The position numbers and the translations under genes were made by a program. DNA of 64,000 nt from a virus, in IMG/VR virus record IMGVR_UViG_3300025138_000015, one strand, 5' to 3'. Below are positions 36,135 to 58,687 of the stretch, in pieces; within the stretch, counting starts at the first letter, position 1; the number at the start of each line of letters is the position of its first letter. Below the pieces are notes generated by a model. The model was not told where the DNA came from and searched no databases. It worked only from the letters and a program-made list of their open reading frames with translations.

Positions 36135-37715
36135 TTAATCTAAAAACCATCTATCTCCATCAGCATCGACAAAGGATTCAGTATTGTTCTGTCCTGTATC
36201 GAATACACCTGCTGGTAATATATCGTCTTCTATTTGTTTTTGTTGTTCTGCGTATAATAGTTCTTTAACTTGTCTATCAGTTAAATGGTAAAAGTGTTCT
36301 GTTGTCACAAACCATGAGAATAACACTAGATTCATAACCATATCGTCATGAAACCCTCTATCTGCCTCAAAACTAGTACCTTTACTTATAAAAGTCATGA
36401 GTTCGGTGATACCTTCTCTATCACATATTGTCATTCGGTTCTCTTCTAATAACTCTTTTAATGTCGAACAACCTATTCTTTTAATTCTTTTAGTCATTGT
36501 CACACCGATATCTTCTGCTTTACTCATACCTTGAACAAAGACATTTGGATATTCTATATCATAATGTAGTTGTGTTGCAACCATTCCACCCTCTGCATTG
36601 TTCTCAATGATTACTAATGATTCATTATAGGGTGTAGTATACTTTGCAATTAGGTCTGGAAATAACATAGGAGATATCATATTATCTCTATAGGTACAAA
36701 CCTGTCTGAATGGTTTCACTGATATATCCATAATAGTAAATGTAGAATAGTCTATTCCACGACCTTTGGAGACATCAACAGTAGTAATATATGTGTGTCC
36801 TTCTTTAGGTTTCTCATATACTTTAACACCATCTCTGTTCCAATCTGGTTCTTTTGCCATTAAACCCAATAATGTATTAGAATTTATAAGAGTATTACCT
36901 GTTCCTAAGAATGAGTTTCCATACTCTTGTTCAAATTGTGCTTCTGATGTGTTTGCAATAGTCTCTTTCTTCCATTCTTCATCTCTTCCTGGTACATCGA
37001 ACCAGTTAATAAGAAAGTGTTTATATTCAGATTGTTTATGAACGGCACTTTCATATATCTTATAGAACATATTACCAACACCGTTTGCAGTAGATGTAAT
37101 GATAACCTTAGAATCTTTACCAGATGTGACAACAGGATATGTTGCAGTATAGAATGTCTCTGCATCATCAACGAAGGCAAACTCATCAAGATACAAGAGG
37201 TTAATAGACAATCCACGGATACTGGAACTGGAAGTTGCCGCAGCGACTACTTTTGAGTCGTTTGCAAATTCTATGGACCCTTTGTTAAGTATTTTTACTC
37301 CAGGTTGTAGGAAAAAGGGAACACTTTCCAACATGGTTACCATTCTTGCAATCATTTCTCTTGCAATTGCACCTTTGTTTGCCAAAACAGCAACAGTGAC
37401 TTCTGGATTAAAGAGTAAAAACCATAATAGATACGCACAAGATGTGATTGATTTACCACTCTGACGAGATGCAAGAACGATATTAAAACGATTTGAGTTG
37501 TAGTGTTCGATGAGTCTGTCTTGGTACCCACGAAGTTTAAAGGGTACCATACCCTCATCTAGTGATATAATTTGTGTATAGTTCTCAATAAAATGACAAG
37601 GGTCTTGTGAACATTTCACATACTCTTGCATTTCTTGGTCGGAATACTTAGTTTCAATACCTGACCTTTTGACTAAAGTGTTACCTAAGTAACCTTCGTT
37701 TTTAGGTTGTACCAT
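36135..37715 (-). CDS. gp17: Terminase large subunit
   Basis: SRQSGKS, YLDEFAF, TSTANG, HDDMVM. Confidence 0.98.
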   Translation of the reverse strand: MVQPKNEGYLGNTLVKRSGIETKYSDQEMQEYVKCSQDPCHFIENYTQIISLDEGMVPFKLRGYQDRLIEHYNSNRFNIVLASRQSGKSITSCAYLLWFLLFNPEVTVAVLANKGAIAREMIARMVTMLESVPFFLQPGVKILNKGSIEFANDSKVVAAATSSSSIRGLSINLLYLDEFAFVDDAETFYTATYPVVTSGKDSKVIITSTANGVGNMFYKIYESAVHKQSEYKHFLINWFDVPGRDEEWKKETIANTSEAQFEQEYGNSFLGTGNTLINSNTLLGLMAKEPDWNRDGVKVYEKPKEGHTYITTVDVSKGRGIDYSTFTIMDISVKPFRQVCTYRDNMISPMLFPDLIAKYTTPYNESLVIIENNAEGGMVATQLHYDIEYPNVFVQGMSKAEDIGVTMTKRIKRIGCSTLKELLEENRMTICDREGITELMTFISKGTSFEADRGFHDDMVMNLVLFSWFVTTEHFYHLTDRQVKELLYAEQQKQIEDDILPAGVFDTGQNNTESFVDADGDRWFLD

Positions 37716-38463
37716 GTTTTAAACCCCAATGAGATATAGGCAGATGATTTGATAATTCATGTTTGCCATCAAATGTAAAAATCCAACCCAAATAATTCCA
37801 TGTTTCAATTGACTTGTAGTATGTTAAAAATTCCAAGTTTCCTTCCCATATTATCTTTTTATAATGAAAATTATTTCTATACATCAAATTTTCTTTTATA
37901 TCAGGATAGTAATCTTGTAAGAACTGTTTAGAATATTTGGAATGTTTATCATAACCTATATCTTCGTATTCACAAGTTGACTCTCCTCTGATATCTGATA
38001 GTTGCACTTTATTTGGATATAGTTTATCTATAAAGTTATGTCTTGTTGCGTATTCAACTAAGTCCAGTATGTGTCCAACATCTAACTCTTTATCTTCTTC
38101 TTTATAAAAGTTTTTAAGAAATCGTTTTTCATCCCAAAGTTCTGATGTTAACCATTCATGCAAGTAGATATCACATTCTGGTAATTCTGTTTCTAGTAAA
38201 TCACCATGAATATACTCTACTGTATCTCCTAGAATCTCTTTCATTCTATCTATAAGTTCAGACCGTCTCTCTAAGGCATATACTTTCTTTGCACCATACT
38301 TGACTGCAAGATAACATAGTATGCCTGAACCAGCACCCAAATCTATGACTATTTTATCTTTAACATTCTCTGATATCCAATTCTCATATGATGTATTTCT
38401 TTGAGAGTCGGTGAAGCAATATGCGGTTTTAAAGAACTCCACATCTTTTGGTGGTTTAATCAT
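37702..38463 (-). CDS. SAM-dependent methyltransferase, protein-arginine methyltransferase-like
   Basis: D..R...Y motif, VIDLGAGSGIL, GAKKVYALE, CDIYLHEWLTSELWDE, SHW. Confidence 0.8.
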   Translation of the reverse strand: MIKPPKDVEFFKTAYCFTDSQRNTSYENWISENVKDKIVIDLGAGSGILCYLAVKYGAKKVYALERRSELIDRMKEILGDTVEYIHGDLLETELPECDIYLHEWLTSELWDEKRFLKNFYKEEDKELDVGHILDLVEYATRHNFIDKLYPNKVQLSDIRGESTCEYEDIGYDKHSKYSKQFLQDYYPDIKENLMYRNNFHYKKIIWEGNLEFLTYYKSIETWNYLGWIFTFDGKHELSNHLPISHWGLKHGTT

Positions 38464-40765: not shown

Positions 40766-40769
40766 AATA

Positions 40770-41585
40770 TTATCCCATTAAGTCAATTGGCATCATATCA
40801 AAATTCAACCTTGACTCTTCTTCTAATCGTGTAATCTCTTCTTGTGCTTCAGTCTTCATCTGAGTTGCATCTAATGTCACACCACCTGGTAATGCAACAC
40901 CTGAGAACTTAGATAAGTTTTCTCCCCATTGATACTTGACTAATGCAGTTGCATATTTCTTCAACCACATATCATTATATATGTCGGTAAAGTTTGTAGG
41001 GTCTATCTTTCTATAACATTCCACAATGATATACTCATCTGCACTTACATTTGAAGTGTCCATATCTAAGTATAGTCTGTTCTGATGAGTATTATATCTT
41101 ATTGGTGTTTGTCCAACCAGTAAATCATCTAACATACTAATGTGTTGTTGAACCATTGAATAGTTTAGAATGCTTGTTGATGTTAAATCTTGCATATCAT
41201 TAAGTCTCATTTGATATCTAAGGTCAAACATATTTAAATTGTGTTTATCATTGAATGGGAATATGTTCATAACAGCAAGAACAAACTCTGGAAGAACGAT
41301 ATAATTCTGTTGTTCTTTAAATGAAGTGTTTGAATAATCGTGTGTTCCTGCAGGATTCGATGTCATACTTGTATCAGTCTTCATCTGAGTTAGATTAGAA
41401 GATGTAAGTTGATGTTTTAGATATGTTTTAATAGAACCATCGTAATGATACTCATGAAAGTATTGTAGTGCCTCATCTATTCTATCATCAAACTGGTCGT
41501 CATCAACATTGATTTCTAAAACAGGCGCACCAAGTCTTCTTTTGATGTATTCTTTGAAGGTTGCTTTGCTATTTGGTTTTGCCAT
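40770..41585 (-). CDS. gp13: Neck protein
   Basis: RRLGAPVLEINV, WLKKYATAL, QWGENLSKF, LPGGV. Confidence 0.95.
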   Translation of the reverse strand: MAKPNSKATFKEYIKRRLGAPVLEINVDDDQFDDRIDEALQYFHEYHYDGSIKTYLKHQLTSSNLTQMKTDTSMTSNPAGTHDYSNTSFKEQQNYIVLPEFVLAVMNIFPFNDKHNLNMFDLRYQMRLNDMQDLTSTSILNYSMVQQHISMLDDLLVGQTPIRYNTHQNRLYLDMDTSNVSADEYIIVECYRKIDPTNFTDIYNDMWLKKYATALVKYQWGENLSKFSGVALPGGVTLDATQMKTEAQEEITRLEEESRLNFDMMPIDLMG

Positions 41586-41627
41586 AGTAATATTCCATTT
41601 TAAGGTCTACTACTATTTATACAGATT

Positions 41628-41888
41628 CTATTCTTGGAAATAGGTTTTACTCTGGAGTCTATCTATCTTCTCATCAATTCTTTGAAGTTGTCTAGCAAGT
41701 CTTTCCATGTCTTGTTCAATCTCTTGCCTGGTGACATAGTCTCTAGCAACCTCTTCTCGTGTTTTGTTAACTAGAATATCAAGTCTTTTCTGTTCTGAGA
41801 GAACTGACCTTACAAGAAACCCTAACGGTGCTAATACTACCGTTATAAGTATATTCCAAATTACATGTGCGTCGATTATTAATTCCAT
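41628..41888 (-). CDS. TM plus coiled-coil hypothetical protein
   Basis: N-terminal TM, TREEVARDYVTR; CATAAATA 5 nt upstream. Confidence 0.65.
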   Translation of the reverse strand: MELIIDAHVIWNILITVVLAPLGFLVRSVLSEQKRLDILVNKTREEVARDYVTRQEIEQDMERLARQLQRIDEKIDRLQSKTYFQE

Positions 41889-41906
41889 ACAGTTATTTAT
41901 GGAATA

Positions 41907-42629
41907 TCACTGTTCTAAAGTCGACACCTGAAGAATTTTTCCATCTAAAGTTATATCAAATAGAGTTTCATCCCAACGGAAACCCTCAATTTCTTCTACT
42001 TTATTGTCACCTTTGAATTTATAACCCATATTAAATGATATACTATATCTATCTCTATCTGTAGTATTTGGTTCGACCATGTGAGTTAAACCACTAGGAA
42101 AGATATACAACATTCCTGTCTTAGGTTGAAAGTGTTCGTTATCATTGAATCTAGGAGAATTAGGAAAATCACCCATAACTCTTGATGTATCTGACATTGC
42201 AATAAAATCACCTTCATCACCTTGTGCATCTATGTAAAAAGCACCTGACATCCAACAACCATTGTGTTTATGTGGTTTGTTCCAAGCACCCTTATCATTG
42301 ATATTTGCCCATGAGTTATGCATATCGACTACATGACCTTTATGTCTTTCTAACCCCCAAAAAGGCCAAACCTCTTCATAGAGAGTGTCTTTTATACATG
42401 ACATCAATTTCATAAATGCTGGATTGGTATCACAACCATCATTTGATTGCCAACCTGTATCTGCATTTGATATCTTTCTACCTTTAGGGTCGTTTGACCT
42501 CATTTCATCCACCGTTCTTTTAAGTAGAGTCATATAATTATCGTCAAGTGCATTATATTGTGGGTCTAATAAATCTCTTATAAAGACCATTTGTGGGGCA
42601 ATAAACTTAACTGGCATCTTTGTCTCCAA
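41907..42629 (-). CDS. Putative 2OG-Fe(II) oxygenase (TIGR02466-like)
   Basis: SN..GWQS, WANIN...NKPHKH...SGAFY, IFPSGLTHMVEPN, RYSISFN. Confidence 0.85.
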   Translation of the reverse strand: METKMPVKFIAPQMVFIRDLLDPQYNALDDNYMTLLKRTVDEMRSNDPKGRKISNADTGWQSNDGCDTNPAFMKLMSCIKDTLYEEVWPFWGLERHKGHVVDMHNSWANINDKGAWNKPHKHNGCWMSGAFYIDAQGDEGDFIAMSDTSRVMGDFPNSPRFNDNEHFQPKTGMLYIFPSGLTHMVEPNTTDRDRYSISFNMGYKFKGDNKVEEIEGFRWDETLFDITLDGKILQVSTLEQ

Positions 42630-43611
42630 AGTCCATCTCTAGTTGTATTTCGTTTGATTCTTCACTGACATGCATAGGGCATTCAGGTGGTATTTCTAAT
42701 TTGTTTTCTGCATTACCAAATAGTTTGCTTTTAGAAACATGCATACCTAGTTTTCTATAAGGTCCTAAACCACCCTCTTCTAATAGATTCGATTCATTTA
42801 TGGCTGCTTGAACTGATTTCGATGTAATTGAACCATCATTTCTAACATCTTGAAGCTTCTTTTTCTTTTTATTCCTATCTTCTTTCAGTTCTCTATATTC
42901 TAAGTGTAAAGTGGTTGTTTGTTCGTCTCTGTCTTTATATGGAGATGTGATATCTGACATATTATCTATAAAAGCTTTCGGGTCTTTAATCTGTGCCGAT
43001 GAAGACCACTCCTCTCTTCTAAATGGAATTACCTGAACAATTGGTGTTCCTTTTGGTATAATAAATGAATGGTTAACTTTGGGATAGAATATAATTTGTG
43101 CATTGTCCATGTTTAGATTAAACTTATCAGTATCAATTATACCTGGCCAAACACTAAAATGTTGATTCTGGTGTAAGAATGGGTCTAAGTAAAGTGTAGA
43201 ATAACCATCAGGTGTTTTTATATTCCAAGGATTTCTAAATTTAAATGCATCTTTTACTGGAAGTCCAGACATTTTCTCTGGTTCCATAGCATTCCCAAAT
43301 TGTGTGTCTGGATGACTTGTTGAACCTATTTTCTTTTGTTCATAAGACCAAGCAGTCGATTGGGTTCCGTCATCAGAATTTAAATCTTGACCTACTTGAA
43401 CTACGATATCTGTTTCTGCAACTAGATAATACCCCATAGTCAACCAATCCTGCATAGCAGGACATGCTCTGATAGTCTGTTGTTTGTCACCTCTAACTAT
43501 CTCATTAATTCTCATCTTTTTCCACCATTCAGGTTGAACTTTAGATGCAAGAATAGGTTTACTATGTTTAACGGTATTAGGGTTGTATGATGTAAATTCA
43601 ATTGTTGGCAT
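42607..43611 (-). CDS. DUF6065-like hypothetical protein
   Basis: TIRACPAMQD, KFRNPWNIKTPDGYS, GIIDTD, IPKGTPIVQVIPFRRE. Confidence 0.6.
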   Translation of the reverse strand: MPTIEFTSYNPNTVKHSKPILASKVQPEWWKKMRINEIVRGDKQQTIRACPAMQDWLTMGYYLVAETDIVVQVGQDLNSDDGTQSTAWSYEQKKIGSTSHPDTQFGNAMEPEKMSGLPVKDAFKFRNPWNIKTPDGYSTLYLDPFLHQNQHFSVWPGIIDTDKFNLNMDNAQIIFYPKVNHSFIIPKGTPIVQVIPFRREEWSSSAQIKDPKAFIDNMSDITSPYKDRDEQTTTLHLEYRELKEDRNKKKKKLQDVRNDGSITSKSVQAAINESNLLEEGGLGPYRKLGMHVSKSKLFGNAENKLEIPPECPMHVSEESNEIQLEMDFGDKDAS

Positions 43612-44339
43612 TATAAAAGTGTACTCTTTCTTTTGAACTCTACTTCGGTGTATTTTAAATATCTGGTGTTTTGGTCTTTGACAAGTTCAATCTCATCTCC
43701 TCTCACCACTAAAGATTTTCTATCCATGTATCTTGCTGATTCATTCGGAGCATCTGCACCATGAGGTATTCTTCCATCAAATATGACAAGTCTATTAGGA
43801 ACAAACTCGACTTCGGCTACTTGATGTTTTTCAATATGTTCTTGTCTTCCGTCTAAACCTTGATGTGGTTTATCGAACATTCTCAATGTACCACCCCAAT
43901 TAGGATTCCAAAATGTATTTGGGTAATATAGAAATGATATATTCCATGCGTCATCATTTGGACAATCTTGATGTATTGTTCCTGGACAACCTTGTGATTG
44001 TGAATTAAGGCCTGCATATTGAAAACGAGTATATTTAAAACCAAACTCTGTTTCTAATCTTTCTATAAGATACTTTACGAAGAATGTGTCTATTGGTTCC
44101 ATATCTTGTTCTATTGCATAATTATCTCTAAAGAAAGATGCACCCCAAAAAGAATGGTGTGCAAGACCTGTAGGACTATTACTAGACACTTGATTTGTCT
44201 TAGACCACCAACTACTTGTTGTTATGAGTTTATCAAAGTGATGTTGAAGTTCAACTGATAACCAATCATCTAAGACATAGATATCCTTTAAAGGCATGTC
44301 CTGTATATGAAATGGTTTATCAATATGAACAACTTGCAT
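43611..44339 (-). CDS. 2OG-Fe(II) oxygenase
   Basis: IHQD, LYYPN..W...WGG, FVPNRLVIFDGRIPH...R. Confidence 0.88.
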   Translation of the reverse strand: MQVVHIDKPFHIQDMPLKDIYVLDDWLSVELQHHFDKLITTSSWWSKTNQVSSNSPTGLAHHSFWGASFFRDNYAIEQDMEPIDTFFVKYLIERLETEFGFKYTRFQYAGLNSQSQGCPGTIHQDCPNDDAWNISFLYYPNTFWNPNWGGTLRMFDKPHQGLDGRQEHIEKHQVAEVEFVPNRLVIFDGRIPHGADAPNESARYMDRKSLVVRGDEIELVKDQNTRYLKYTEVEFKRKSTLL

Positions 44340-44921
44340 TTAAGACTGTCCTAAATCCACATGTCCTGTTGCCATTGCAGCTGCTGGTATTTGTCTTCTA
44401 TAATGTTCGAAGTCTTTAAGTAATTCTTCTTTAGTGCTAAAGATTTCATCACGGATTTGAAAGTAAACATTGTGAGTATTATCAATATACTCTAAAACTC
44501 TTCTAGCATTTCCTCTTGCTGGATGGTTGGAACCTTCTCTGCCGGCAATTAGAACCATTTGCAAATCACGGAATCCATATAATTGAGCTACCTCTTCATG
44601 TTGTTCCCTAACAACAAAATTAAGTTTTTCAGCATATTGTGATTGAAGATTTATATCTTCTGGTGCTTCAGAGTTTGAAATATATTGTTCACACAATTCT
44701 TTCTCCATATCATTTAAAGCTACCTGTTCCTGGTCTTCGAATCTCTTTCCAGGAATCCATTCCATAATTTTCATTTCAATATCATCATAGACGACAACAT
44801 CAAATTCAAAACCTAATGCAGGTTTATCAACATTCTCGAATGTGTATTCAAGTCCGTTTGGTTTTCTTATATAAAGGTTCTTGTTTTCACAAAATACCAG
44901 TGCGTTCATTTGTTGATTCAT
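44340..44921 (-). CDS. Hypothetical protein resembling tail-fibre assembly chaperones
   Basis: C-terminal AQLYGFRDL...GSNHPARGNARRVLEY helical motif like those in small fibre-associated proteins. Confidence 0.45.
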   Translation of the reverse strand: MNQQMNALVFCENKNLYIRKPNGLEYTFENVDKPALGFEFDVVVYDDIEMKIMEWIPGKRFEDQEQVALNDMEKELCEQYISNSEAPEDINLQSQYAEKLNFVVREQHEEVAQLYGFRDLQMVLIAGREGSNHPARGNARRVLEYIDNTHNVYFQIRDEIFSTKEELLKDFEHYRRQIPAAAMATGHVDLGQS

Positions 44922-44924
44922 AAT

Positions 44925-46559
44925 TTATCCTCTCTTTAAATTATTTAGGTTGTCTCTACGAGTCTTAATTTCCTCGTAATGAGATAGTCGTTTAATGTTA
45001 GATGTATCCATATTTTCTATCCAAGGACCACCTCTTGTATAATGATAACCAGAACAACCCCATTTGGTTTCCGGATTATCATATCCTTCAGTAAAGATGT
45101 AATGTTCAGGTATCTTACTCAATTTATCTGTCCATTCAAACTGATGCAACTGAGCACCTGTCCATGAATTAACAACATCTGGTGTTAGTTTCTTACAATC
45201 TTCATGACCATTGTTAAATATCATTAATGAAGACCATAATTTACATGGATAGTCTATGTTTATTTCACCATTAAACTTAACAGAATCATGTGCGTATTGT
45301 GGGTATTGAATACATGCAACAGCATTATCAGGATTTAAATAGTATAACATTGGTAATAGTGATTTTTCAAAAAGAATATCGTCATCAATAAACATACTAA
45401 AACCTTCATAATTCTCTAAGTAAGGTATTAAGAATCTACTGTATGTAAACGCAGTAGATTGATTCTTATACTCCCTATTATACTCTGGAATCTTTGAATA
45501 GTCAAGATACTTTATTTCAGGCATGAATTGATTTGTAGTATCACCTTGTGAGTATGTTGAACGAATACTCGATTCTATTGAGAACTTTGTTAAATCTTCA
45601 ATTTGTTTATGTGTAGAATCATAACCAATGTATATATTAAATGGTTTTCCTTTTGCAAGTTTATGCACCTTCCTGTTAAACTCATATACTTTAGGTCTGA
45701 AATCCCCCACATTTGCAAACTCACTATTGACTTCTATAACTCCACCTGTTATAATAAAAGATAAATTATCTTGTGTGATTCCTCTTTTTTTGAGTAAGTC
45801 TTTCCAATAATCTAAAAATTCATCAACTGTTGCTGGTTTTATTTCAGGAACTTTATTATGTGGGTCAAAGAAATGACATAACATACTAGGGTCTTGCATC
45901 TCTTCAATAACACCTGAACGAACAGAACCTGGATGAACAAAGAACTTAAATTTCTCATCACCATATGATGTGTCTTTTAAAATAACTCCTTGAATTGGTG
46001 CCCATAATCCTTCTTCGATTATACTTTGAGTTAACCAATGGGCTTTTGCTGAGTGATAGTAGGAACTATCCCACATATTCTTTAGATTTGTATTTGTTTT
46101 GTCATCTTCGTCAACACCTACTCCGTGAGATTGTATATATCTTTCTCCGTTTGGGTCTTCTTCAGTTCTTATCATGTTTGTATTCATTCCCATTGGAAAC
46201 ATTTCTGCTGTAGGACCACAAGTATAACCATGAGGTAAGAATTGATTGTATGTGAGAGAGTGGTGTTTTAGACCGTGCATTGTCACCATGTTGTTGTCTC
46301 TTCTATCTTGCATCACATCACCATATGTGAATAACTTTAGAGGAGGAACTTTACCTTCTTCGAAGATTTTCTTTAAAATTAGATAACAAGGATTATGTTC
46401 TTTCATAACCCTATTTACATTAAGACTTCCTAAATGATAGTGTGGATTTTTGTCTCTTATTGCAAAAGCACTTTCACAACCATCAAAGTCTATAGGTATA
46501 ATTGAGTCTACATCGTCAACTGTTTTAATGTCTGTAAAATCGGGATTATTTGATGCCAT
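44925..46559 (-). CDS. Two-domain protein: unknown (ParB/Srx-like?) N-domain plus GT-A glycosyltransferase
   Basis: IYIGYD, STAFTYSRFLIPYL, FIDDD (DxD), WSSLMIFN, LHQFEW, HYTRGGPW. Confidence 0.82.
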   Translation of the reverse strand: MASNNPDFTDIKTVDDVDSIIPIDFDGCESAFAIRDKNPHYHLGSLNVNRVMKEHNPCYLILKKIFEEGKVPPLKLFTYGDVMQDRRDNNMVTMHGLKHHSLTYNQFLPHGYTCGPTAEMFPMGMNTNMIRTEEDPNGERYIQSHGVGVDEDDKTNTNLKNMWDSSYYHSAKAHWLTQSIIEEGLWAPIQGVILKDTSYGDEKFKFFVHPGSVRSGVIEEMQDPSMLCHFFDPHNKVPEIKPATVDEFLDYWKDLLKKRGITQDNLSFIITGGVIEVNSEFANVGDFRPKVYEFNRKVHKLAKGKPFNIYIGYDSTHKQIEDLTKFSIESSIRSTYSQGDTTNQFMPEIKYLDYSKIPEYNREYKNQSTAFTYSRFLIPYLENYEGFSMFIDDDILFEKSLLPMLYYLNPDNAVACIQYPQYAHDSVKFNGEINIDYPCKLWSSLMIFNNGHEDCKKLTPDVVNSWTGAQLHQFEWTDKLSKIPEHYIFTEGYDNPETKWGCSGYHYTRGGPWIENMDTSNIKRLSHYEEIKTRRDNLNNLKRG

Positions 46560-46560
46560 A

Positions 46561-46595
46561 AAATATCTGTATTAGTTTAATTAATACAGATATTT
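46561..46595. repeat. Perfect 14-bp inverted repeat directly before the glycosyltransferase start
   Basis: AAATATCTGTATTA-gtttaat-TAATACAGATATTT. Confidence 0.85.
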
Positions 46596-46605
46596 AGGTG
46601 TTATT

Positions 46606-47388
46606 TTATGAAGAGACTGGAGATGCTGGCCAAGTTTGTGCTAAACTACCATCCCAACGAGCAACTGGTGTTTGACCTTGTGTTCCATATGTGAATGGAC
46701 TTCTGTTCTGATAAGTGAACGGAGTCTGACCTTGTCTTGCATATGTTCCAGGTTGTCTATTCTGATAAGTGAACGGAGTCTGACCTTGTCTTGAATATGT
46801 AGTAGGATTCTGATTAGAATATGTGAAAGGAGTTTGTCCTTGTCTTGCATATGTTCCAGGTTGCCTATTCTGATATGTTCCAGGTTGTCTTGCATTCGCA
46901 ATGTAAGGTTGCTGACCATTTACAGGATTCTGATAGATAGCAGGTTGTCTTGCATTCGCAATATAAGGTTGTTGACCATTTACAGGATTTCTGTAAGTAA
47001 ATGGACTTCTAGCATTCGCAATATATGGTTGCTGAGCATTTACAGGATTTCTGTAAGTAAATGGTTGTCTCGCATTGGCAATGTAAGGTTGTTGGGCAGA
47101 AACAGGGTTTCTGTATCCAGCAGGATACCTAGCATTGTAAGTAAACGGTTGCTGAGCATTACTAGGTGACTGAGCATTCGCAGGATACCTAGCATTATAA
47201 GTGAAAGGTGTTCTTGCATTACTAGGTGACTGTGCATTTGCAGGATATCTTGCATTATAAGTGAAAGGTGTTCTTGCATTATAAGTGAAAGGTGTTCTTG
47301 CACTATAAGTAAATGGGTTTCGACCACTTGCTATAAAAGGCTGCCTTGCATTTCCTATTGCAGGTGCATAATAGAATCCAATTGCCAT
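46606..47388 (-). CDS. Q/N/P/Y/R-rich repeat protein B1
   Basis: TPFTYNAR, QPYIANAR, QPGTYARQGQ units; GAGGAG SD. Confidence 0.8.
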   Translation of the reverse strand: MAIGFYYAPAIGNARQPFIASGRNPFTYSARTPFTYNARTPFTYNARYPANAQSPSNARTPFTYNARYPANAQSPSNAQQPFTYNARYPAGYRNPVSAQQPYIANARQPFTYRNPVNAQQPYIANARSPFTYRNPVNGQQPYIANARQPAIYQNPVNGQQPYIANARQPGTYQNRQPGTYARQGQTPFTYSNQNPTTYSRQGQTPFTYQNRQPGTYARQGQTPFTYQNRSPFTYGTQGQTPVARWDGSLAQTWPASPVSS

Positions 47389-47415
47389 GTTATTTAACTC
47401 CTCTTAATATATACA

Positions 47416-48363
47416 TTATCTCGCCTCGAAGTTTGGCATGAAGCTATTGAAGCCGCCACCGTCACCGCCGCCGCCGAACGGTTGGTAATATGGATATGGT
47501 GCCAGATATAAGAATGGATATGTAAACGGATTCTGAGCATTACCTGAGAATGGTTGTTGTCCATTCGCAATGTACGGTTGTCTTGCATTCGCAATGTACG
47601 GTTGTCTTGCATTCGCAATATAAGGCACACGATATGTAAATGGATTTCTGTATGTAAATGGTTGTCTAGCATTAGCAATATAAGGAACACGATATGTAAA
47701 CGGATTCCTATATGTAAATGGACTTCTAGCATTTGCAATATAAGGCACCTGATAACCTACAGGATTTCTGTATGTAAATGGAGACCTTGCTTGATATGTA
47801 AATGGACTCTGACCGCTTACAGGATTTCTATATGTAAATGGACTTCTATTAGCATATGTAAATGGTTGCTGAGCATTTACAGGATTTCTGTATGTAAACG
47901 GAGACCTATTACTATATGTAAATGGATTTTGACTACTAGACGGATTTCTATATGTGAATGGTTGTCTATTCTGATATGTAAACGGTGTTTGACTATTCGC
48001 AATATACGGAGTCTGACTGTTCGCTATATAAGGATAAGGTTGTTGTGCATTCGCAATATAGGGTTGACCACCATTAGCAATATACGGATACGGTTGTTGT
48101 GCATTCGCAATATATGGGGTCTGACTGTTTGCAATGTATGGGTAAGGTTGTTGTGCATTCGCAATGTATGGTTGTTGACCATTTGCAATATACGGATAGG
48201 GTGCTTGAACTATTGCCTGACCTGATGCATTATTCCAACCTGATGGAGTTTTTACATAAATCTGGTCAACATCTTTCCAAGTTGTTGAACTTGTCTTAAC
48301 CCATGCCCCTCTGGTTGAATTCCATCCAGCTGGGGTTTTAACCTTTTGATTACCTGTTACCAT
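47416..48363 (-). CDS. Q/N/P/Y/R-rich repeat protein A1 with N-terminal VKT..GW fibre-type motifs
   Basis: QPY(PY)IANAQ and SPFTYRNP units; Gly-rich end; AAGGTG SD. Confidence 0.8.
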   Translation of the reverse strand: MVTGNQKVKTPAGWNSTRGAWVKTSSTTWKDVDQIYVKTPSGWNNASGQAIVQAPYPYIANGQQPYIANAQQPYPYIANSQTPYIANAQQPYPYIANGGQPYIANAQQPYPYIANSQTPYIANSQTPFTYQNRQPFTYRNPSSSQNPFTYSNRSPFTYRNPVNAQQPFTYANRSPFTYRNPVSGQSPFTYQARSPFTYRNPVGYQVPYIANARSPFTYRNPFTYRVPYIANARQPFTYRNPFTYRVPYIANARQPYIANARQPYIANGQQPFSGNAQNPFTYPFLYLAPYPYYQPFGGGGDGGGFNSFMPNFEAR

Positions 48364-48381: not shown

Positions 48382-50445
48382 TTAAGAGTAGTAAATCCAT
48401 AAGTCACCAACTGCACCATCTGAACCAGAAGGAGTTGAAGTTGACTGATATATATTTCTTGCTGTACCGCCACTATTTGTGGCATTCGTTATTGTTATTG
48501 CACCTGATGCTACTGTACCTAATGATACATTTGAACCACTCTCATATTTAGTATTCAATGCAGTTTGTAATCCGTCAACATTTGCAATTGTATGATTATG
48601 TGAATCATCAGCAACTGTTGCTGTTATTGATATGTTTGCACTTCCATTAAAACTTGCAGAACCCGATAGGTCTCCACCAAGTGATATTGTTCTTGCTGTC
48701 TCTAAGACTGTTGCTGAACCAGCATTTCCTGAAACTGTTCCAGTGACATTACCAGTTAGATTACCTTCGAATGTTGATGCAACAAAAGTTTCTGAACCTA
48801 CTGTCCATTTGTCATTTGTTTCATCCCAAACAAGAGTCTTAGCTGCAGAACCACCTCTAGTGACACTTATTCCTGAATCTTGTGTTGGTGAACCTGAAGT
48901 GAAGTCTGAGTTCAATGCAATAATGTTATCTGCAAGATTGATTGTTTCTGAATTAACTGTTGTAGTTGTTCCTGATACTGTTAAGTTACCTGAAACGGTT
49001 AGTGAATCACTAACTGCAACAACACCTGTTCCGTTTGCACTCAATGTTAGGTTAGTATCTGTACTTCTGGATTCGATTGAATCTACATCAATTGCGTTTG
49101 AGAATGATATTGCATTTCCGTCTGATGATGATACATTCTTACCTGCAGTAATTTGTACCGCACCTTTTAATTGAATTGCACCAGTTCCAGTAGGATTAAG
49201 TTCTACATCACCTGAACCACTTGTTTGAACTGATACATTTTGGTTTGCATCAGCAGAAACAGTAATTGTACCTGAATTATCAGATACTACTTGTTGTCCG
49301 TTAACATATAAAGACCCAGGTCCAACATAGATATCTCTCCATTGTTTCGAAGAAGAACCTAAGTCGTATGTGACATCGGCATTCGGTATGATATGACCTG
49401 ATAAATTACCACCACCTAGGAATGATTGAACTTGTGAGTCACCATAATCGTTAGAAAGTGTTAATGTACCCGCTGCATCGTCATATGTAGAAGTGATGTT
49501 TGTTCCACCAACTACTAAACCATTTACGATATCTTCTATTTCTTCTTCTGTTTTACCTGAAGATGCAATTGTTAAAGTTCCCGCTGCGTCATCATATGTT
49601 GTTGATATGTTTGTTCCTGCAACTAATAATGCATTAACTCTGTCGTCAACTCTTTCGTTTGTAAAGTAGAGGTTTGTATTTTCTGTTAGGTTTGCAGTTG
49701 TTGAACTAGACTCATCTAGTAATTTTTTCCATGCACCAGCATGAGCAAAATAACCTGCTCCAGTTCCGTGAACATGAGCAAACATACCATGGTATGTACT
49801 TGCACTAGGTAAGTCACTTTCTGCAGAGTATACATTTGAGTACATCATCTTACCTGTTGTAGTAATATTGAATGCTTGTGCATCTAAGTTACCACCAAGT
49901 TGTGGTGTTGTATCTTCAACTACATTATTGATTGAAACTGCTTCTGCTCTTGCATCTGTAAAGTAAAGGTTAGATGAACCTTCATTGACATCGTCTGTAT
50001 TACCTGAAAGTTCTGATAATGCGTCTTTACTTGCTACTTGTGAATCAACATATGCTTTAATAGACTGCTGTGATGCAGCGTGAGTTGCACTGCCTGAGGA
50101 CATATCATCTTCGTCTTTAAGGTCGATTGCAATGTCATTTGCATTTACAGTCATACCTGTTCCAGCACCGACTGCTAATGTTGCATCACCGGATGATGCA
50201 TCACCAGTAAGACCAGCACCTGCAATGATACCTGTGATATCACCTTGTTGTCCTGATACTGTTAATGTTCCATTGGCATCATCATATGTTAATGTGATTC
50301 CTGTTCCTGCTGTTAATAGAGAATTAACTCTATCGTCAATTGATTCTACAATTGCTGTACCTGTTAAAGCACCAGCACTAGTTATAACCTCTACTCCGCC
50401 TACAGATAGACCATTCTTAATATTAAAGTTCTTTTCACCTGCCAT
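48382..50445 (-). CDS. Tail fibre protein
   Basis: Three DDRVN...TYDDA.GTLT repeats, YDLGSSSKQWRDIY, C-terminal GDLWI. Confidence 0.8.
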   Translation of the reverse strand: MAGEKNFNIKNGLSVGGVEVITSAGALTGTAIVESIDDRVNSLLTAGTGITLTYDDANGTLTVSGQQGDITGIIAGAGLTGDASSGDATLAVGAGTGMTVNANDIAIDLKDEDDMSSGSATHAASQQSIKAYVDSQVASKDALSELSGNTDDVNEGSSNLYFTDARAEAVSINNVVEDTTPQLGGNLDAQAFNITTTGKMMYSNVYSAESDLPSASTYHGMFAHVHGTGAGYFAHAGAWKKLLDESSSTTANLTENTNLYFTNERVDDRVNALLVAGTNISTTYDDAAGTLTIASSGKTEEEIEDIVNGLVVGGTNITSTYDDAAGTLTLSNDYGDSQVQSFLGGGNLSGHIIPNADVTYDLGSSSKQWRDIYVGPGSLYVNGQQVVSDNSGTITVSADANQNVSVQTSGSGDVELNPTGTGAIQLKGAVQITAGKNVSSSDGNAISFSNAIDVDSIESRSTDTNLTLSANGTGVVAVSDSLTVSGNLTVSGTTTTVNSETINLADNIIALNSDFTSGSPTQDSGISVTRGGSAAKTLVWDETNDKWTVGSETFVASTFEGNLTGNVTGTVSGNAGSATVLETARTISLGGDLSGSASFNGSANISITATVADDSHNHTIANVDGLQTALNTKYESGSNVSLGTVASGAITITNATNSGGTARNIYQSTSTPSGSDGAVGDLWIYYS

Positions 50446-50705: not shown

Positions 50706-50808
50706 ATTCGTTTGTCCTAGTCTAAGAATGTATTATTATACAGATATTTATAAGAAGTGAGTCCTCTCGGCACATACTTTTTTTAGATATCTACAATTTA
50801 TTTTTAGT

Positions 50809-52831: not shown

Positions 52832-52880
52832 AAAAGAATCTCTTGTGTTATACTATTTATAACATTTGGGAAGTGGGAAT

Positions 52881-52909
52881 AAAAAAAAGGGGAACCGAAG
52901 TTCCCCTTT
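52881..52909 (-). terminator. Rho-independent terminator with UUCG loop
   Basis: AAAGGGGAAC-TTCG-GTTCCCCTTTTTTTT. Confidence 0.92.
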
Positions 52910-52929
52910 CCGTATAATATAAAGAAGTC

Positions 52930-55929: not shown

Positions 55930-55959
55930 CTTGATTTGTTTGTATAAGTATTTATACAA

Positions 55960-56540: not shown

Positions 56541-56566
56541 ATAACTATTTATACGAAAAAAGAACT

Positions 56567-57283
56567 CTAGGAATTAGGTTCTGATAATTGTGCTGTGGGT
56601 TGAGTTTGATGTATCTTTTCTGCAGTTCCAGAATTATTTACATATACTTCTGATGCTTTTCTTAGAGTGCCATTATCATTGACATATACTTGTTTAACTT
56701 TTGCCAAAGGACCTATTGTTCTTGTACTTGGAAAAGGATTTTGATATGTGAATGGACTTCTGTTCTGATAAGTAAATGGTTGTCTATTCTGATATGTTCC
56801 AGGTTGCCTTGCATTCGCAATATAAGGTTGTTGATAACTTGTAGGATTTCTATATGTACCAGGTTGTCTATTACTATATGTAAATGGTGTTTGACCTTGT
56901 CTATCATAGGTGAAAGGTGTTCTTGCCTGATAAGTGAAAGGAGTTTGACCTTGTCTTGCATATGTGAATGGTTGTCTATTTTCATATGTGAAAGGTGTTC
57001 GACCTGTGGCATTTGCAATGTATGTACTAGGTTGTCTATTATTATATGTTCCAGGTTGTCTTGCATCCGCAATATATGGGTGTTGATATATCGCAGGTTG
57101 TCTATTATTATATTCTGCAGGTTGTCGTGCATTCGCAATATAAGGTTGTTGATATGTAAATGGATGCCTGTATGTAAAAGGTTGCCTTGCACTTGCCTGA
57201 TACGGAGTTTGAGCATTACTAGGTTGTCTTGCATTAGCAATATAAGGTTGTTGAACTATAACTGGCTGTTGTCCTGTTGGCAT
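56567..57283 (-). CDS. Q/N/P/Y/R-rich repeat protein B2 with C-terminal VYVN..G motifs
   Basis: QPYIANAR, TPFTY, QPGTY units; VKQVYVNDNG...EVYVNNSG. Confidence 0.8.
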   Translation of the reverse strand: MPTGQQPVIVQQPYIANARQPSNAQTPYQASARQPFTYRHPFTYQQPYIANARQPAEYNNRQPAIYQHPYIADARQPGTYNNRQPSTYIANATGRTPFTYENRQPFTYARQGQTPFTYQARTPFTYDRQGQTPFTYSNRQPGTYRNPTSYQQPYIANARQPGTYQNRQPFTYQNRSPFTYQNPFPSTRTIGPLAKVKQVYVNDNGTLRKASEVYVNNSGTAEKIHQTQPTAQLSEPNS

Positions 57284-58683
57284 TATCTAAACCCCGCCTG
57301 TGTACCATAAGTAGACCTTAGATATATCTGACTTATATGACCTTGAACAGCACCACTGTTGCTACAAATAAAATGAGTATAGTAAGTTGTTTGACCAGTC
57401 TTACTAGCTTTAATAGTAAATATAACACCTTGTGCCTGTGTCATTCCAGTTTGTTGATTGGTATTTGACGCTGATGCTGCCATCCACATAAATTGTTTAG
57501 AACTCGATGATGAACCATTCCAAATACTATAATAAGTACCGGCAATTCTACCAGCTATTCCTGTTGCCGGTGTGACTGTATCAGAAGTACCTCCACTAGC
57601 AGTTTGACTCTGAACAGTATACTTAACATCAATATTCCATGAACTATCAATTACATTATTATTATTAAGTTCTGTTAAAGGCAAATATATGTAATAAGGA
57701 TTGTAACCATAATAATCTGCATATGCTGTGGAATTTCCACCTGAATATTCATAATATACTTTATTTTGTGTTGAACTATAACCAATAATAAACTGAGCAA
57801 AACATTGACCATGTGAATAACTAAAATTCTGAATTTGAGTAGTTTGCCATGCATAATTTGGTAATCCACTGGCCAATGGATTAGTTGGGTAAAGAGGATT
57901 ACTCGGTGAGAATGCAGAGTTTGGGCTCGTTGTCATATGTGGAGAATTAGAACCCCACCATTCGTTTGATGACATACCTACAGTTGTATTGCTAACAGTT
58001 GAAAAAGGAGCATTTGTAGGACTTAAATCTGTTGTTGTTTCAATATTTGCGGTTGCTGAACTTCCCCCACCCCAAACATCGTAAGTCACAGGAGTCCGAC
58101 TTGATACTGCCGTACTATGATTATATGTAAATGGATGTTGATATATCGCAGGTTGTCTATTATCATATGTAAACGGATTCTGACCATTACTAGGTTGTTG
58201 TGCATCAGGTGTTGCTCTTGCCTGATATGTAAATGGTGTTTGACTATTTGCAATATAAGGAGTTTGAGAATTACTTGGTTGTCTGTTTTGATATGTAAAC
58301 GGTGTTTGACTATTTGCTATATAAGGTGTCTGTGCGTTAGCAGTATATGTAAATGGGTATGGTTGTTGTGCTGATGCCTGATATGGATTTTGTCCATTTG
58401 CAATATACGGATAAGGTTGTTGTGCGTTTGCTATATAAGGTTGTCTTGCATTCGCAATATATGGATATGCCTGTTGAGCATTCGCAATGTAAGGTGTCTG
58501 ATTACTTGTAGGATTCCTGTATAGGGCAGGATTTCTATTACTATATGTAAATGGTGATTGACTATTTGCTATGTACGGTTGTTGTGCATTCGCAATGTAT
58601 GGTTGTTGTGCATTCGAAGGTTGTCTATCATTGAAAGACTGTTGAATGGTTGTACCAGTATTTACATAAATCTTGTCTGACAT
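57283..58683 (-). CDS. Repeat protein A2: N-terminal repeats plus non-repetitive C-terminal domain
   Basis: KIYVNTG start, QPYIANAQ/TPFTY units for about 200 aa, then an S/T/Y-rich globular-looking region. Confidence 0.8.
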   Translation of the reverse strand: MSDKIYVNTGTTIQQSFNDRQPSNAQQPYIANAQQPYIANSQSPFTYSNRNPALYRNPTSNQTPYIANAQQAYPYIANARQPYIANAQQPYPYIANGQNPYQASAQQPYPFTYTANAQTPYIANSQTPFTYQNRQPSNSQTPYIANSQTPFTYQARATPDAQQPSNGQNPFTYDNRQPAIYQHPFTYNHSTAVSSRTPVTYDVWGGGSSATANIETTTDLSPTNAPFSTVSNTTVGMSSNEWWGSNSPHMTTSPNSAFSPSNPLYPTNPLASGLPNYAWQTTQIQNFSYSHGQCFAQFIIGYSSTQNKVYYEYSGGNSTAYADYYGYNPYYIYLPLTELNNNNVIDSSWNIDVKYTVQSQTASGGTSDTVTPATGIAGRIAGTYYSIWNGSSSSSKQFMWMAASASNTNQQTGMTQAQGVIFTIKASKTGQTTYYTHFICSNSGAVQGHISQIYLRSTYGTQAGFR

Positions 58684-58687
58684 GATT

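What the first reader, a model, noticed from the sequence alone, without database searches (positions are those of the whole stretch)
41907..48363. Candidate new system: repetitive fibre proteins with a dedicated tailoring cassette
Seen: two proteins built from 8-12-aa units (QPYIANAR, QPYPYIANSQ, SPFTYRNP, TPFTYNAR, QPGTYARQGQ), almost free of acidic residues, directly followed on the same strand by a glycosyltransferase fusion, a chaperone-like ORF, a 2OG-Fe(II) oxygenase, a DUF6065-like protein and a second oxygenase. Known: 2OG oxygenases hydroxylate Pro/Asn/Arg, and hydroxylation followed by glycosylation matures collagens and extensins; repeated cores plus tailoring enzymes also describe RiPP clusters. 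Inference: a pathway making hydroxylated and glycosylated virion filaments for adhesion, receptor binding or shielding, or less likely releasing modified peptides. No protease is encoded here, which favours intact fibres.
Basis: partly seen in the sequence, partly recalled or inferred. Interest (0 to 1): 0.9.

Follow-up and report, generated by a model that had tools for sequence, protein, structure and literature searches.

The report
Phage repeat fibres beside late sugar-transferase operon
An abundant uncultured marine T4-like phage encodes four odd proline/tyrosine-rich repeat proteins among its tail-fibre genes, always followed by one late operon of a sugar transferase and two oxygenases; the enzymes may decorate the fibres, but gene order alone does not prove it.

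Summary
The window is the host-recognition region of an uncultured marine T4-like myophage related to pelagimyophages. It holds four, not two, K/D/E-free repeat proteins built from xP(x)4-6 units. They form two tandem pairs, each after a fibre gene, and are under purifying selection.

About half of the database relatives of the 315-aa protein end in GGGG|Cys plus a self-processing Hint domain. The window copy lacks it.

In 59 of 59 distinct relatives (43-95% identity) a repeat gene ends within 400 nt upstream of the glycosyltransferase gene. In 55 of 55 with enough downstream sequence the same four genes follow. The five enzyme genes are:
- a GT8-type transferase fused to an unknown N-domain
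- an orphan 193-aa protein
- a P4H/FlmC-like 2OG oxygenase
- a dUTPase-fold protein
- a TIGR02466 oxygenase

They have their own T4-type late promoter (47 of 49 distinct upstream regions).

Late timing and strict linkage fit virion tailoring, which I put at about 0.4. Against it, all loci belong to one clade, so the linkage counts as one evolutionary event. The spot before the neck gene is also a known insertion site for unrelated enzymes in sister phages, and the nearest relatives of the enzyme domains sit in sugar/LPS or metabolic clusters. A PRMT-like methyltransferase nearby is a further lead.

First readers of this scan noted this cassette in related genomes, and analogous repeat-Hint-enzyme modules in other phages.

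The parts
57283..58683 (-). rep466: repeat protein with about 180 aa of xP(x)4-6 units followed by a 265-aa non-repeat C-terminal domain. First gene of the upstream repeat pair, directly after fibre gene 58688-60142.
   Evidence: Homologues share the C-domain (A7). No Pfam hit.
56567..57283 (-). rep238: second repeat protein of the upstream pair. Its start overlaps the stop of rep466. It has a 58-aa C-terminal YVN..G hairpin-like tail.
   Evidence: pN/pS 0.24 against the L083 orthologue.
48382..50445 (-). fib687: tail-fibre protein that precedes the downstream repeat pair. It belongs to the late unit that starts at TATAAATA 50745-50752.
   Evidence: PHROG tail-fibre families; promoter.
47416..48363 (-). 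rep315: 56-aa Trp-rich N-domain, 230 aa of repeats, and a poly-Gly tail. About half of the listed database relatives continue after GGGG with Cys and a Hint domain; the window copy does not.
46606..47388 (-). rep260: repeat protein made almost wholly of units; 0 D/E/K, 9% R.
   Evidence: pN/pS 0.08-0.09.
46561..46597 (-). Intergenic control region. CTAAATA late-promoter-like box at 46591-46597 overlaps a 14-bp AT hairpin (46561-46595) that is followed by TTTTAT. In relatives a GC-rich terminator plus CTAAATA occupies this place.
   Evidence: 47 of 49 distinct upstream regions carry the box; background 4.2% of 60-nt windows.
44925..46559 (-). GT544: residues about 304-544 are a GT8-type retaining GT-A glycosyltransferase with an invariant DxD (D392, D394). 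Residues 1-300 are an undescribed domain with an invariant HPGSxRS motif, known almost only in fusion with GT8.
44340..44921 (-). h193: clade-restricted orphan protein, always second in the operon.
   Evidence: no family, no solved relative, no isolate-phage homologue.
43611..44339 (-). ox242: 2OG-Fe(II) oxygenase of the P4H-like family with an intact H123-x-D125...H193 triad.
   Evidence: DdPhyA-type P4H 6t8m E 0.003; EGLN1; Tpa1; FlmC family 1.8e-8, below cut-off.
42607..43611 (-). d334: N-domain (1-205) with a dUTPase-like fold and an invariant GIIDTD. The C-terminal 130 aa have low model confidence.
41907..42629 (-). ox240: TIGR02466 / 2OG-FeII_Oxy_5 oxygenase, last gene of the enzyme operon.
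41628..41888 (-). tm86: small membrane-anchor plus coiled-coil protein with its own late box. Conserved neighbour, probably not part of the module.
   Evidence: 57 of 57
37702..38463 (-). mt253: PRMT-like methyltransferase. Possible further tailoring enzyme for the Arg-rich repeats; membership of the module is unproven.

Best explanation
The four repeat proteins are late-expressed structural parts of the tail-fibre network of a marine T4-like myophage. Each pair follows a fibre gene. The proteins combine a small docking end, an extended K/D/E-free stalk of xP(x)4-6 units, and an exchangeable far end: a globular domain, a hairpin tail, or poly-Gly plus a Hint domain that cuts itself off at GGGG|C in most relatives.

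The five-gene operon directly downstream is a separate late transcription unit. I read it as a glycosylation module that acts in the cytoplasm during virion assembly. The GT8 domain of GT544 would transfer a sugar from a UDP-sugar. The unknown N-domain would supply acceptor or nucleotide binding. ox242 and ox240 would hydroxylate either the acceptor (Pro/Asn/Tyr-rich units) or the sugar. d334 would handle a nucleotide by-product or precursor. The adjacent repeat proteins are the most likely acceptors.

Shown: gene content, folds, catalytic motifs, strict linkage, late-promoter boxes and purifying selection.
Inferred: that the proteins are in the virion, that the enzymes act on proteins at all, which residue is modified, and the role of each accessory enzyme.
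For: - Position. The repeat genes lie between fibre genes inside the VrlC-to-neck region that the literature calls the host recognition cluster (PMC7029224).
- Linkage. In 59 of 59 distinct GT544 homologues (43-95% identity) a repeat gene ends less than 400 nt upstream. In 55 of 55 with enough downstream sequence h193, ox242, d334 and ox240 follow. Exactly two repeat genes precede GT544 in 49 of 49. The most divergent subclade keeps the order.
- Timing. All 14 TATAAATA boxes in the window are on the coding strand, several 13-54 nt before genes. A [C/T/A]TAAATA box precedes GT544 in 47 of 49 distinct relatives against a 4% background. It is absent before ox242, d334 and ox240, so the five genes form one late operon. 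GC-rich terminators separate it from the repeat genes in relatives.
- GT domain. Z 14-16 to GT8 enzymes, including protein-glycan transferases GlyE, Skp1 Gat1 (6mw8), glycogenin and UGGT; Z 12.3 to PBCV-1 A64R and 10.1 to mimivirus R699. The DxD motif is invariant.
- ox242. Nearest solved relatives are protein prolyl hydroxylases, and it resembles FlmC of the Caulobacter flagellin-glycosylation gene set (PMC7591256).
- Clade restriction. Three of the enzyme genes (GT544 fusion, h193, ox242 orthologues) and the repeats are confined to this clade and absent from HTVC008M, Mosig and Melnitz.
- A PRMT-like methyltransferase with a double-E loop is conserved nearby in the same clade, and the repeats are Arg-rich.
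Against: - All loci are one clade with frozen gene order from fibre to neck. Linkage is therefore a single event and equally explained by descent.
- The site before the neck gene is an insertion hot spot. HTVC008M carries four oxygenases and a ferrochelatase there. Mosig carries oxygenases, ferrochelatase, heme oxygenase and pcyA, in the structural orientation, with no repeat or Hint protein within 20 kb.
- Standalone relatives of the GT domain sit with methyltransferases, sulfotransferase, other GTs or KdsA/KdsB, far from fibres.
- d334 relatives sit in metabolic or replication contexts, and its fold is that of nucleotide enzymes.
- GT8 enzymes mostly extend glycans. No initiating protein GT was found.
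- Similarity of ox242 to prolyl hydroxylases is weak (E 0.003).
- No evidence that the repeat proteins are in virions.
Confidence: 0.4

Rival explanations
1. The enzyme operon is an unrelated accessory island that landed in the hypervariable slot before the neck gene. It acts on host envelope glycans (LPS/O-chain or capsule precursors), on nucleotide sugars or on small metabolites, as proposed for pelagimyophage GT8 genes. The repeat proteins are unmodified fibre parts.
For: - The same slot holds unrelated oxygenases, ferrochelatase, heme oxygenase and pcyA in HTVC008M and Mosig, without repeats.
- Relatives of the GT domain lie with KdsA/KdsB, sulfotransferase, methyltransferases and other GTs.
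- The literature reading of GT8 in this region is host O-chain modification (PMC7029224).
- GT8 enzymes mostly act on sugar acceptors (LgtC, WbbM).
- d334 has a nucleotide-enzyme fold.
- FlmC-type oxygenases belong to a sugar-nucleotide pathway gene set.
Against: - A conserved late promoter, and no early-type signal, is odd for superinfection exclusion or host takeover.
- Perfect retention of five genes in one order in a region otherwise called hypervariable.
- The GT is fused to a clade-specific domain not found in the LPS-type relatives.
Confidence: 0.33
2. The operon does tailor virion proteins, but the acceptors are other structural proteins, for example the Ser/Thr/Asn/Gly-rich fibres (687, 560, 532 and 484 aa), not the Pro/Tyr repeat proteins.
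For: - Late operon inside the fibre module.
- The large fibres are very rich in Ser/Thr, the usual O-glycosylation sites.
- Mycobacteriophage GTs next to structural genes glycosylate capsid and tail proteins (Freeman et al. 2023, PMC10527164, cited).
Against: The operon is always adjacent to the repeat pair rather than to any one fibre. The fibres vary much more than the repeats and enzymes across loci.
Confidence: 0.12
3. The operon modifies phage DNA or nucleotide pools, with hydroxylase plus glycosyltransferase plus dUTPase-like enzyme working as in base J or glucosyl-hmC systems.
For: - d334 has a dUTPase/dCTP-deaminase fold with a motif-3-like GIIDTD.
- The GT N-domain motif (K..WL...K..GL..P.QG ... 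HPGxxR..A) recalls ParB/Srx nucleotide- or DNA-binding domains. This is from memory and is not confirmed by any profile.
- PHROG labels ox242 relatives 'DNA endonuclease V'. This sits oddly with the clear 2OG-oxygenase Pfam match of ox242.
Against: - Neither oxygenase matches TET/JBP. Both match PF13640 or PF13759.
- A late-only promoter is wrong for enzymes needed during replication.
- Pfam ParBc is not detected even at E 10.
Confidence: 0.08
4. The repeat proteins are RiPP-like precursors whose repeated cores are modified and released as peptides.
For: Repeated near-identical units next to tailoring enzymes. A Hint domain in relatives gives one self-cleavage.
Against: - No leader/core organisation, no peptidase, no exporter, no cyclase or RRE-type partner in the window.
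- Hint cuts once at the C-terminus, not between units.
- Non-repeat docking and tip domains argue for an intact structural protein.
Confidence: 0.02

Closest known systems
Host recognition cluster of pelagimyophages and cyanomyophages (Zaragoza-Solas et al. 2020, PMC7029224)
   Same: Same genomic slot (VrlC gene to neck gene), the same mix of fibre genes with GT8 glycosyltransferases and oxygenases, and the same kind of marine T4-like phage. One homologue comes from a contig of 110,977 bp, the length listed for PMP-MAVG-23 of group E.
   Different: In the passages read, that paper does not describe the Pro/Tyr repeat family, the Hint-capped forms, the GT fusion or the fixed five-gene late operon. 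It proposes host O-chain modification as the role of the GTs.
Mycobacteriophage virion glycosylation (Freeman et al. 2023, PMC10527164)
   Same: Phage-encoded glycosyltransferase genes placed next to structural genes that glycosylate the phage's own virion proteins.
   Different: Different phage group and different acceptors (C-terminal extensions of capsid and tail-tube proteins), with no oxygenases or repeat-Hint proteins. Here no modification has been shown.
Mimivirus collagen modification (L230 lysyl hydroxylase/glucosyltransferase; R699 GT8 glucosyltransferase; PMC9546862, PMC12279948)
   Same: A virus encodes repeat structural proteins plus a 2OG oxygenase and a GT8-fold transferase. R699 is a structural neighbour of the GT544 C-domain (Z 10.1).
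   Different: The repeats here are not collagen (no Gly-X-Y, no Lys). The oxygenases are not lysyl hydroxylases, and the similarity to R699 is at fold level only.
Skp1 hydroxyproline glycosylation pathway (PhyA, Gnt1, Gat1) of Dictyostelium and Toxoplasma
   Same: Cytoplasmic prolyl 4-hydroxylase followed by glycosyltransferases. The best solved hit of ox242 is a P4H of this type (6t8m), and Gat1 (6mw8) is among the best fold matches of the GT domain (Z 15.3).
   Different: No GT60-type initiating enzyme here. Single-site modification of a globular protein there, hundreds of candidate sites in repeats here. Sequence similarity is marginal.
Bacterial intein-like (BIL) / Hedgehog-type Hint autoprocessing domains
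   Same: In relatives the repeat protein ends in Gly|Cys, a TxxH block and a terminal His-Asn, with no nucleophile after it (G, I, F, M or R). This matches cleaving, non-splicing Hint domains.
   Different: Fused to a phage fibre-module repeat protein. The window's own copy lacks the domain. The fate of the thioester (hydrolysis or ligation) is unknown.

Membership tests
CAZy GT8-type retaining GT-A glycosyltransferase (GT544, residues about 304-544) | GT-A fold closest to GT8 members | tested here: met
   AF2 model pLDDT 82. VIA Z 16.4 (3tzt, rmsd 2.9, 189 aligned), 16.3 LgtC, 15.5 GlyE, 15.3 Gat1, 14.7 glycogenin. Foldseek E 1e-6 range.
CAZy GT8-type retaining GT-A glycosyltransferase (GT544, residues about 304-544) | DxD metal/nucleotide-sugar motif | tested here: met
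   D392 and D394 are invariant in 29 homologues (FIDDD).
CAZy GT8-type retaining GT-A glycosyltransferase (GT544, residues about 304-544) | Pfam PF01501 above the gathering score | tested here: inconclusive
   Window protein scores 23.6 bits against a cut-off of 24.3. 23 of 29 homologues match at E up to 1.
Prolyl 4-hydroxylase-like 2OG-Fe(II) oxygenases (ox242) | HxD...H iron triad and family profile | tested here: met
   H123, D125 and H193 are invariant. PF13640 scores 33.5 bits against a cut-off of 27.
Prolyl 4-hydroxylase-like 2OG-Fe(II) oxygenases (ox242) | Peptidyl-proline substrate | not testable with these tools
   Only weak profile similarity to DdPhyA-type P4H (E 0.003), EGLN1 and Tpa1. 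FlmC family 34.7 bits against a cut-off of 240.
TIGR02466 / PF13759 oxygenases (ox240) | Family profiles above curated cut-offs | tested here: met
   TIGR02466 74.5 bits against 62.5. PF13759 70.2 bits against 27. Solved relatives 3bvc and 2rg4 are uncharacterised.
dUTPase-fold / DUF6065 (d334) | dUTPase-like beta fold | tested here: met
   The 23 top chains are all dUTPase or dCTP deaminase, Z 10.3-5.3; the next unrelated chain has Z 3.7. The model is of low confidence (pLDDT 52).
dUTPase-fold / DUF6065 (d334) | Profile membership of PF19541 or PF00692, and the five dUTPase motifs | tested here: inconclusive
   DUF6065 in 2 of 29 members (E 0.026) and dUTPase in 3 of 29 (E 0.15). Only a motif-3-like GIIDTD is clearly invariant.
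Hint / BIL autoprocessing domain on the repeat protein | N-terminal Cys after Gly, TxxH block, C-terminal His-Asn, Hint profile | tested here: not met
   The window has no Hint domain in any frame. It is met in relatives: Vint 30.3 bits against 27, GGGG|C junction in 60 of 72 junctions counted, HN followed by G/I/F/M/R.
RiPP biosynthetic cluster | Leader-core precursor with peptidase, recognition element or exporter | tested here: not met
   No such family among the ORFs from 37.7 to 60 kb that were scanned with Pfam or PHROGs.
Collagen/extensin-type hydroxylation then glycosylation | Hydroxylase plus an initiating glycosyltransferase acting on the hydroxylated residue (GT25, GT60 or Hyp-arabinosyl type) | tested here: inconclusive
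   Only a GT8-type domain was recognised. The 300-aa N-domain of GT544 and h193 have no assignable family.
Protein arginine methyltransferase (mt253, outside the given span) | PRMT-type SAM domain with a double-E loop | tested here: met
   All 57 top PDB hits are PRMTs, best 2.8e-10. HEWLTSELWDE has the E-to-E spacing of PRMT1 (spacing recalled from memory). The C-terminal barrel was not tested.
T4-type late transcription unit | TATAAATA-like box shortly upstream of the first gene, absent before internal genes | tested here: met
   GT544 47 of 49, tm86 57 of 57, neck 44 of 44, ox242 1 of 52, d334 0 of 50, ox240 0 of 56; background 4.2%.

The most novel reading that the evidence does not exclude
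An abundant marine phage clade runs a multi-step protein-tailoring programme on its own appendages: hydroxylation of Pro/Asn/Tyr-rich units, glycosylation by a GT8 fusion, arginine methylation by a minimal PRMT, and Hint-driven C-terminal thioester chemistry that ligates the poly-Gly end to another virion part. The product would be an extensin- or mussel-adhesive-like, covalently anchored fibre coat. This would give the many orphan 2OG oxygenases of marine phages their first defined substrate.
Probability: 0.12. Interest if true: 0.9.

Novelty: new variant of a known kind. Interest (0 to 1): 0.6.

Why it matters
Marine T4-like phages carry many 2OG-Fe(II) oxygenase and GT8 genes whose substrates have been unknown since the first cyanophage genomes. 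Here a fixed late operon of such enzymes sits next to an undescribed family of K/D/E-free Pro/Tyr/Asn/Arg repeat proteins, with a self-cleaving Hint cap in many relatives, in a phage clade seen in hundreds of ocean metagenome contigs.

That gives a concrete, cheap test: co-express one repeat protein with five enzymes and read the masses. A positive result would show virion protein hydroxylation and glycosylation in an abundant ocean phage group. It would also bear on host recognition, particle stickiness and stability. A negative result would push the field back to host-envelope or metabolite targets.

Tried and rejected
- Complex prediction on three copies of rep466 residues 150-466 (alignment A7) gave no answer: score 0.00, partner fold uncertain. 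It says nothing either way.
- The AF2 model of d334 was of low confidence (pLDDT 52), so only the fold class of the N-domain is used.
- The GT544 N-domain had no PDB sequence hit, no Pfam or NCBIfam family and no Atlas hit.
- A ParB/Srx-like reading of its HPGxxR motif rests on memory only. Pfam ParBc is not found even at E 10 in remote relatives.
- h193 had no family, no solved relative and no isolate-phage homologue. 'Chaperone-like' is dropped.
- blastn of the 6.8-kb span and tblastn of rep315 against 50,697 phage records found nothing.
- The window's assembly is not held, and the nearest record (16.8 kb) lacks GT544.
Contexts of distant database homologues and RNA evidence could therefore not be obtained.
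- Literature searches for Hint domains in phage fibre proteins found only terminase and RNR inteins.
- The RiPP and DNA-modification readings were considered and ranked low (see rivals).
- An independent-lineage co-occurrence test could not be made. Every fetched locus belongs to one syntenic clade.

Full report
**What the window is.** All genes of the region lie on the minus strand, and GC is about 35%. The tail sheath is 49% identical to that of Pelagibacter phage Mosig and 47% to HTVC008M. The neck protein at 40770-41585 is 50-52% identical to those of Melnitz, Mosig and HTVC008M. The span from the VrlC-like gene (60349 onward) to the neck gene matches what Zaragoza-Solas et al. 2020 (PMC7029224) call the host recognition cluster of pelagimyophages. 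They describe it as a hypervariable block of fibre genes mixed with GT8 glycosyltransferases. One homologue of the 193-aa protein comes from a contig of 110,977 bp, the length listed there for PMP-MAVG-23 of group E. That hints at the clade but does not prove it.

**The observation.**
- The seven ORFs are as described.
- Both repeat genes show nested DNA periods of 24-120 nt.
- At protein level the unit is a polar residue, Pro, then 4 or 6 residues ending in Q or R. This gives 6-mers and 8-mers with a few 10-mers.
- Together P, Q, Y, N, A, T and R make up about 75-85% of the repeat regions.
- The repeat regions of rep315 and rep260 contain no Asp, Glu, Lys, Cys, Met, Trp or His.
- The frame is real. 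Against equal-length orthologues, pS is 0.24 and pN 0.021 for rep260. Non-repeat domains continue in the same frame.
- The antisense and shifted ORFs listed are by-products of the repeats.

- There are four repeat proteins, not two. rep466 and rep238 (57283-58683 and 56567-57283) follow the fibre gene 58688-60142, just as rep315 and rep260 follow the fibre gene 48382-50445.
- The ends are modular. rep466 has a 265-aa non-repeat C-domain shared with many homologues. rep238 ends in a YVN..G hairpin-like tail. rep315 starts with a Trp-rich 56-aa domain and ends in poly-Gly.
- Among relatives, the C-terminal part is swapped between several unrelated domain types.
- 56 of the 120 best database relatives of rep315, and repeat genes in 26 of 153 fetched loci, continue after GGGG with Cys and a complete Hint domain (Pfam Vint 4.4e-7; Intein_splicing).
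- That domain ends in His-Asn followed by G, I, F, M or R and a 4-15-residue tail. This is the pattern of cleaving, non-splicing BIL/Hog-type domains.
- The window has no Hint domain in any frame. 'No protease' therefore holds for this genome but not for the family.

**The enzymes.**
- GT544. The AF2 model has pLDDT 82. Residues about 304-544 form a GT8-type GT-A domain with Z 14-16 to LgtC, GlyE, Skp1 Gat1, glycogenin, UGGT and LARGE1, 12.3 to PBCV-1 A64R and 10.1 to mimivirus R699. The DxD motif is invariant.
- GT544 N-domain (residues 1-300). It matches no family or solved sequence. An exhaustive profile search of 1.84 billion proteins found 71 hits. The full-length ones are this same kind of protein, three of the remote ones scanned (P0377, P0386, P0422) also carry GT8, and the others scanned are 250-360-aa proteins without any Pfam family. 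They share K..WL...K..GL..P.QG and HPGxxR..A. This reminds me of ParB/Srx domains, but no profile confirms it.
- ox242. It has the full HxD...H triad. Its nearest solved relatives are protein prolyl hydroxylases, weakly (6t8m E 0.003; EGLN1; Tpa1). It also matches NCBIfam 'FlmC family 2OG-Fe(II) oxygenase' below cut-off. flmC is one of the genes needed to reconstitute Caulobacter flagellin pseudaminylation (PMC7591256).
- ox240. It is a TIGR02466/PF13759 member above cut-offs. Its solved relatives are uncharacterised.
- d334. The N-domain has a dUTPase-like fold. The 23 best chains are all dUTPases or dCTP deaminases, Z 10.3 to 5.3, then a drop to 3.7. GIIDTD is invariant. The model is weak.
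- h193. It remains an orphan.

**Linkage.**
- About 160 IMG/VR loci fetched with GT544 or rep315 show one gene order from fibre to sheath-stabiliser.
- Counting distinct GT544 proteins (43-95% identity), 59 of 59 have a repeat gene ending within 400 nt upstream.
- 55 of 55 with enough downstream sequence are followed by h193, ox242, d334 and ox240.
- 49 of 49 have exactly two repeat genes between the fibre and GT544.
- The most divergent subclade I could fetch keeps the order, with a Hint-capped first repeat gene.
- This is strong co-conservation, but within one clade it counts as one event.

**Timing.**
- All 14 TATAAATA boxes in the window are on the coding strand. Several lie 13-54 nt before genes, among them the fibre, neck and sheath genes.
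- A [C/T/A]TAAATA box lies within 60 nt upstream of GT544 in 47 of 49 distinct relatives, against 4.2% of random 60-nt windows.
- The same box precedes tm86 in 57 of 57, the neck gene in 44 of 44 and the small gene before fib687 in 45 of 47.
- It is essentially absent before ox242 (1 of 52), d334 (0 of 50), ox240 (0 of 56) and fib687 (1 of 46). Before h193, 11 of 49 carry a box.
- In several relatives a GC-rich hairpin with a U-run separates the repeat genes from this box. In the window an AT hairpin overlaps it.
- The five enzyme genes are therefore one late operon, separate from but adjacent to the repeat operon.
- That TATAAATA is the T4 late promoter is textbook knowledge. Late-transcription sigma factor genes are annotated in the sister phages.
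- Late timing fits action on virion proteins. It fits poorly with DNA modification or early host takeover.

**Evidence against a dedicated link.**
- The slot before the neck gene is an insertion hot spot. HTVC008M has four oxygenases and a ferrochelatase there. Mosig has oxygenases, ferrochelatase, heme oxygenase and pcyA, in the structural orientation. Melnitz has nothing.
- None of the three has a Pro-rich repeat protein or a Hint domain within 20 kb. None has an orthologue of GT544, h193, ox242 or d334. Only ox240 finds about 30% paralogues.
- Standalone relatives of the GT domain (30-40% identity) lie with methyltransferases, a sulfotransferase and other GTs in Mosig and Stenotrophomonas phage DLP_6, and with KdsA/KdsB and oxygenases in a cyanophage.
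- d334 relatives lie in a metabolic-gene region of a cyanophage and beside RNR in haloarchaeal HF2.
- ox242 relatives (25% identity) are scattered in cyanomyophages.
At orthologue level they never do.

**A further lead.** The 253-aa gene at 37702-38463, between the terminase genes, finds only eukaryotic protein arginine methyltransferases among its 57 best PDB hits (best 2.8e-10). It carries a double-E-loop-like HEWLTSELWDE. It is conserved at the same place in the divergent subclade and absent from the three sister phages. The repeat regions hold 4-10% Arg and no Lys. This fits a protein-tailoring lifestyle but is not evidence of a link.

**Verdict.** The repeat proteins are real, conserved, fibre-module proteins of a new family, often Hint-capped. 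The enzyme block is a real, conserved late operon centred on a GT8 fusion. Tailoring of the repeats by that operon is the single best reading (about 0.4). It is closely rivalled by an unrelated glycan or metabolite role in a known insertion slot (about 0.33) and by action on other virion proteins (about 0.12). Nothing here shows chemistry.

First readers of this scan noted this same gene set in related genomes, and first-reader and follow-up notes describe analogous repeat-Hint-enzyme modules in other phages. I did not test those notes and do not count them as support.

Noticed in passing
window 37702-38463 (-): A 253-aa methyltransferase between the terminase genes. Its 57 best PDB hits are all eukaryotic PRMTs (best 2.8e-10). 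It has a double-E-loop-like HEWLTSELWDE and a C-terminal SHW. It is conserved in the clade and absent from HTVC008M, Mosig and Melnitz.
   Followed up: partly
window 56567-58683 (-): A second tandem pair of repeat proteins (466 and 238 aa) follows another fibre gene. It mirrors the fibre, repeat A, repeat B order of the reported locus.
   Followed up: yes
relatives of window 47416-48363, e.g. P0001, P0005, P0010; L168:6077-8335: About half of the database relatives of the 315-aa repeat protein end in GGGG|Cys plus a Hint autoprocessing domain, with a terminal His-Asn and no downstream nucleophile. The window copy ends in poly-Gly plus 15 residues instead.
   Followed up: yes
window 41614-41621, 46591-46597, 50745-50752, 52854-52861, 55949-55956, 56546-56553 (-): T4-type late promoter boxes (TATAAATA or CTAAATA) mark the starts of the late units. 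All 14 exact TATAAATA copies in the window are on the coding strand.
   Followed up: yes
window 52884-52911 (-): Strong intrinsic terminator (12-bp stem with 5 GC pairs, then a T-run) between the 136-aa gene and the late promoter of the 560-aa fibre gene.
   Followed up: no
L165 (HTVC008M 56402-59681) and L166 (Mosig 39650-44735): Sister pelagimyophages carry other enzyme clusters (2OG oxygenases, ferrochelatase, heme oxygenase, pcyA) at the same slot before the neck gene. HTVC008M also has a dioxygenase and a tryptophan halogenase between its terminase genes, where this phage has the PRMT-like gene.
   Followed up: partly
window 41628-41888 (-): An 86-aa protein with an N-terminal membrane helix and a coiled coil (PHROG 462). 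It has its own late box in 57 of 57 relatives and sits between the enzyme operon and the neck gene.
   Followed up: no
window 46834-47169 (+), 47554-48225 (+), 56690-57310 (+): Long antisense ORFs (111-223 aa) run through the repeat genes. They are stop-free by-products of the codon repeats, not genes.
   Followed up: partly
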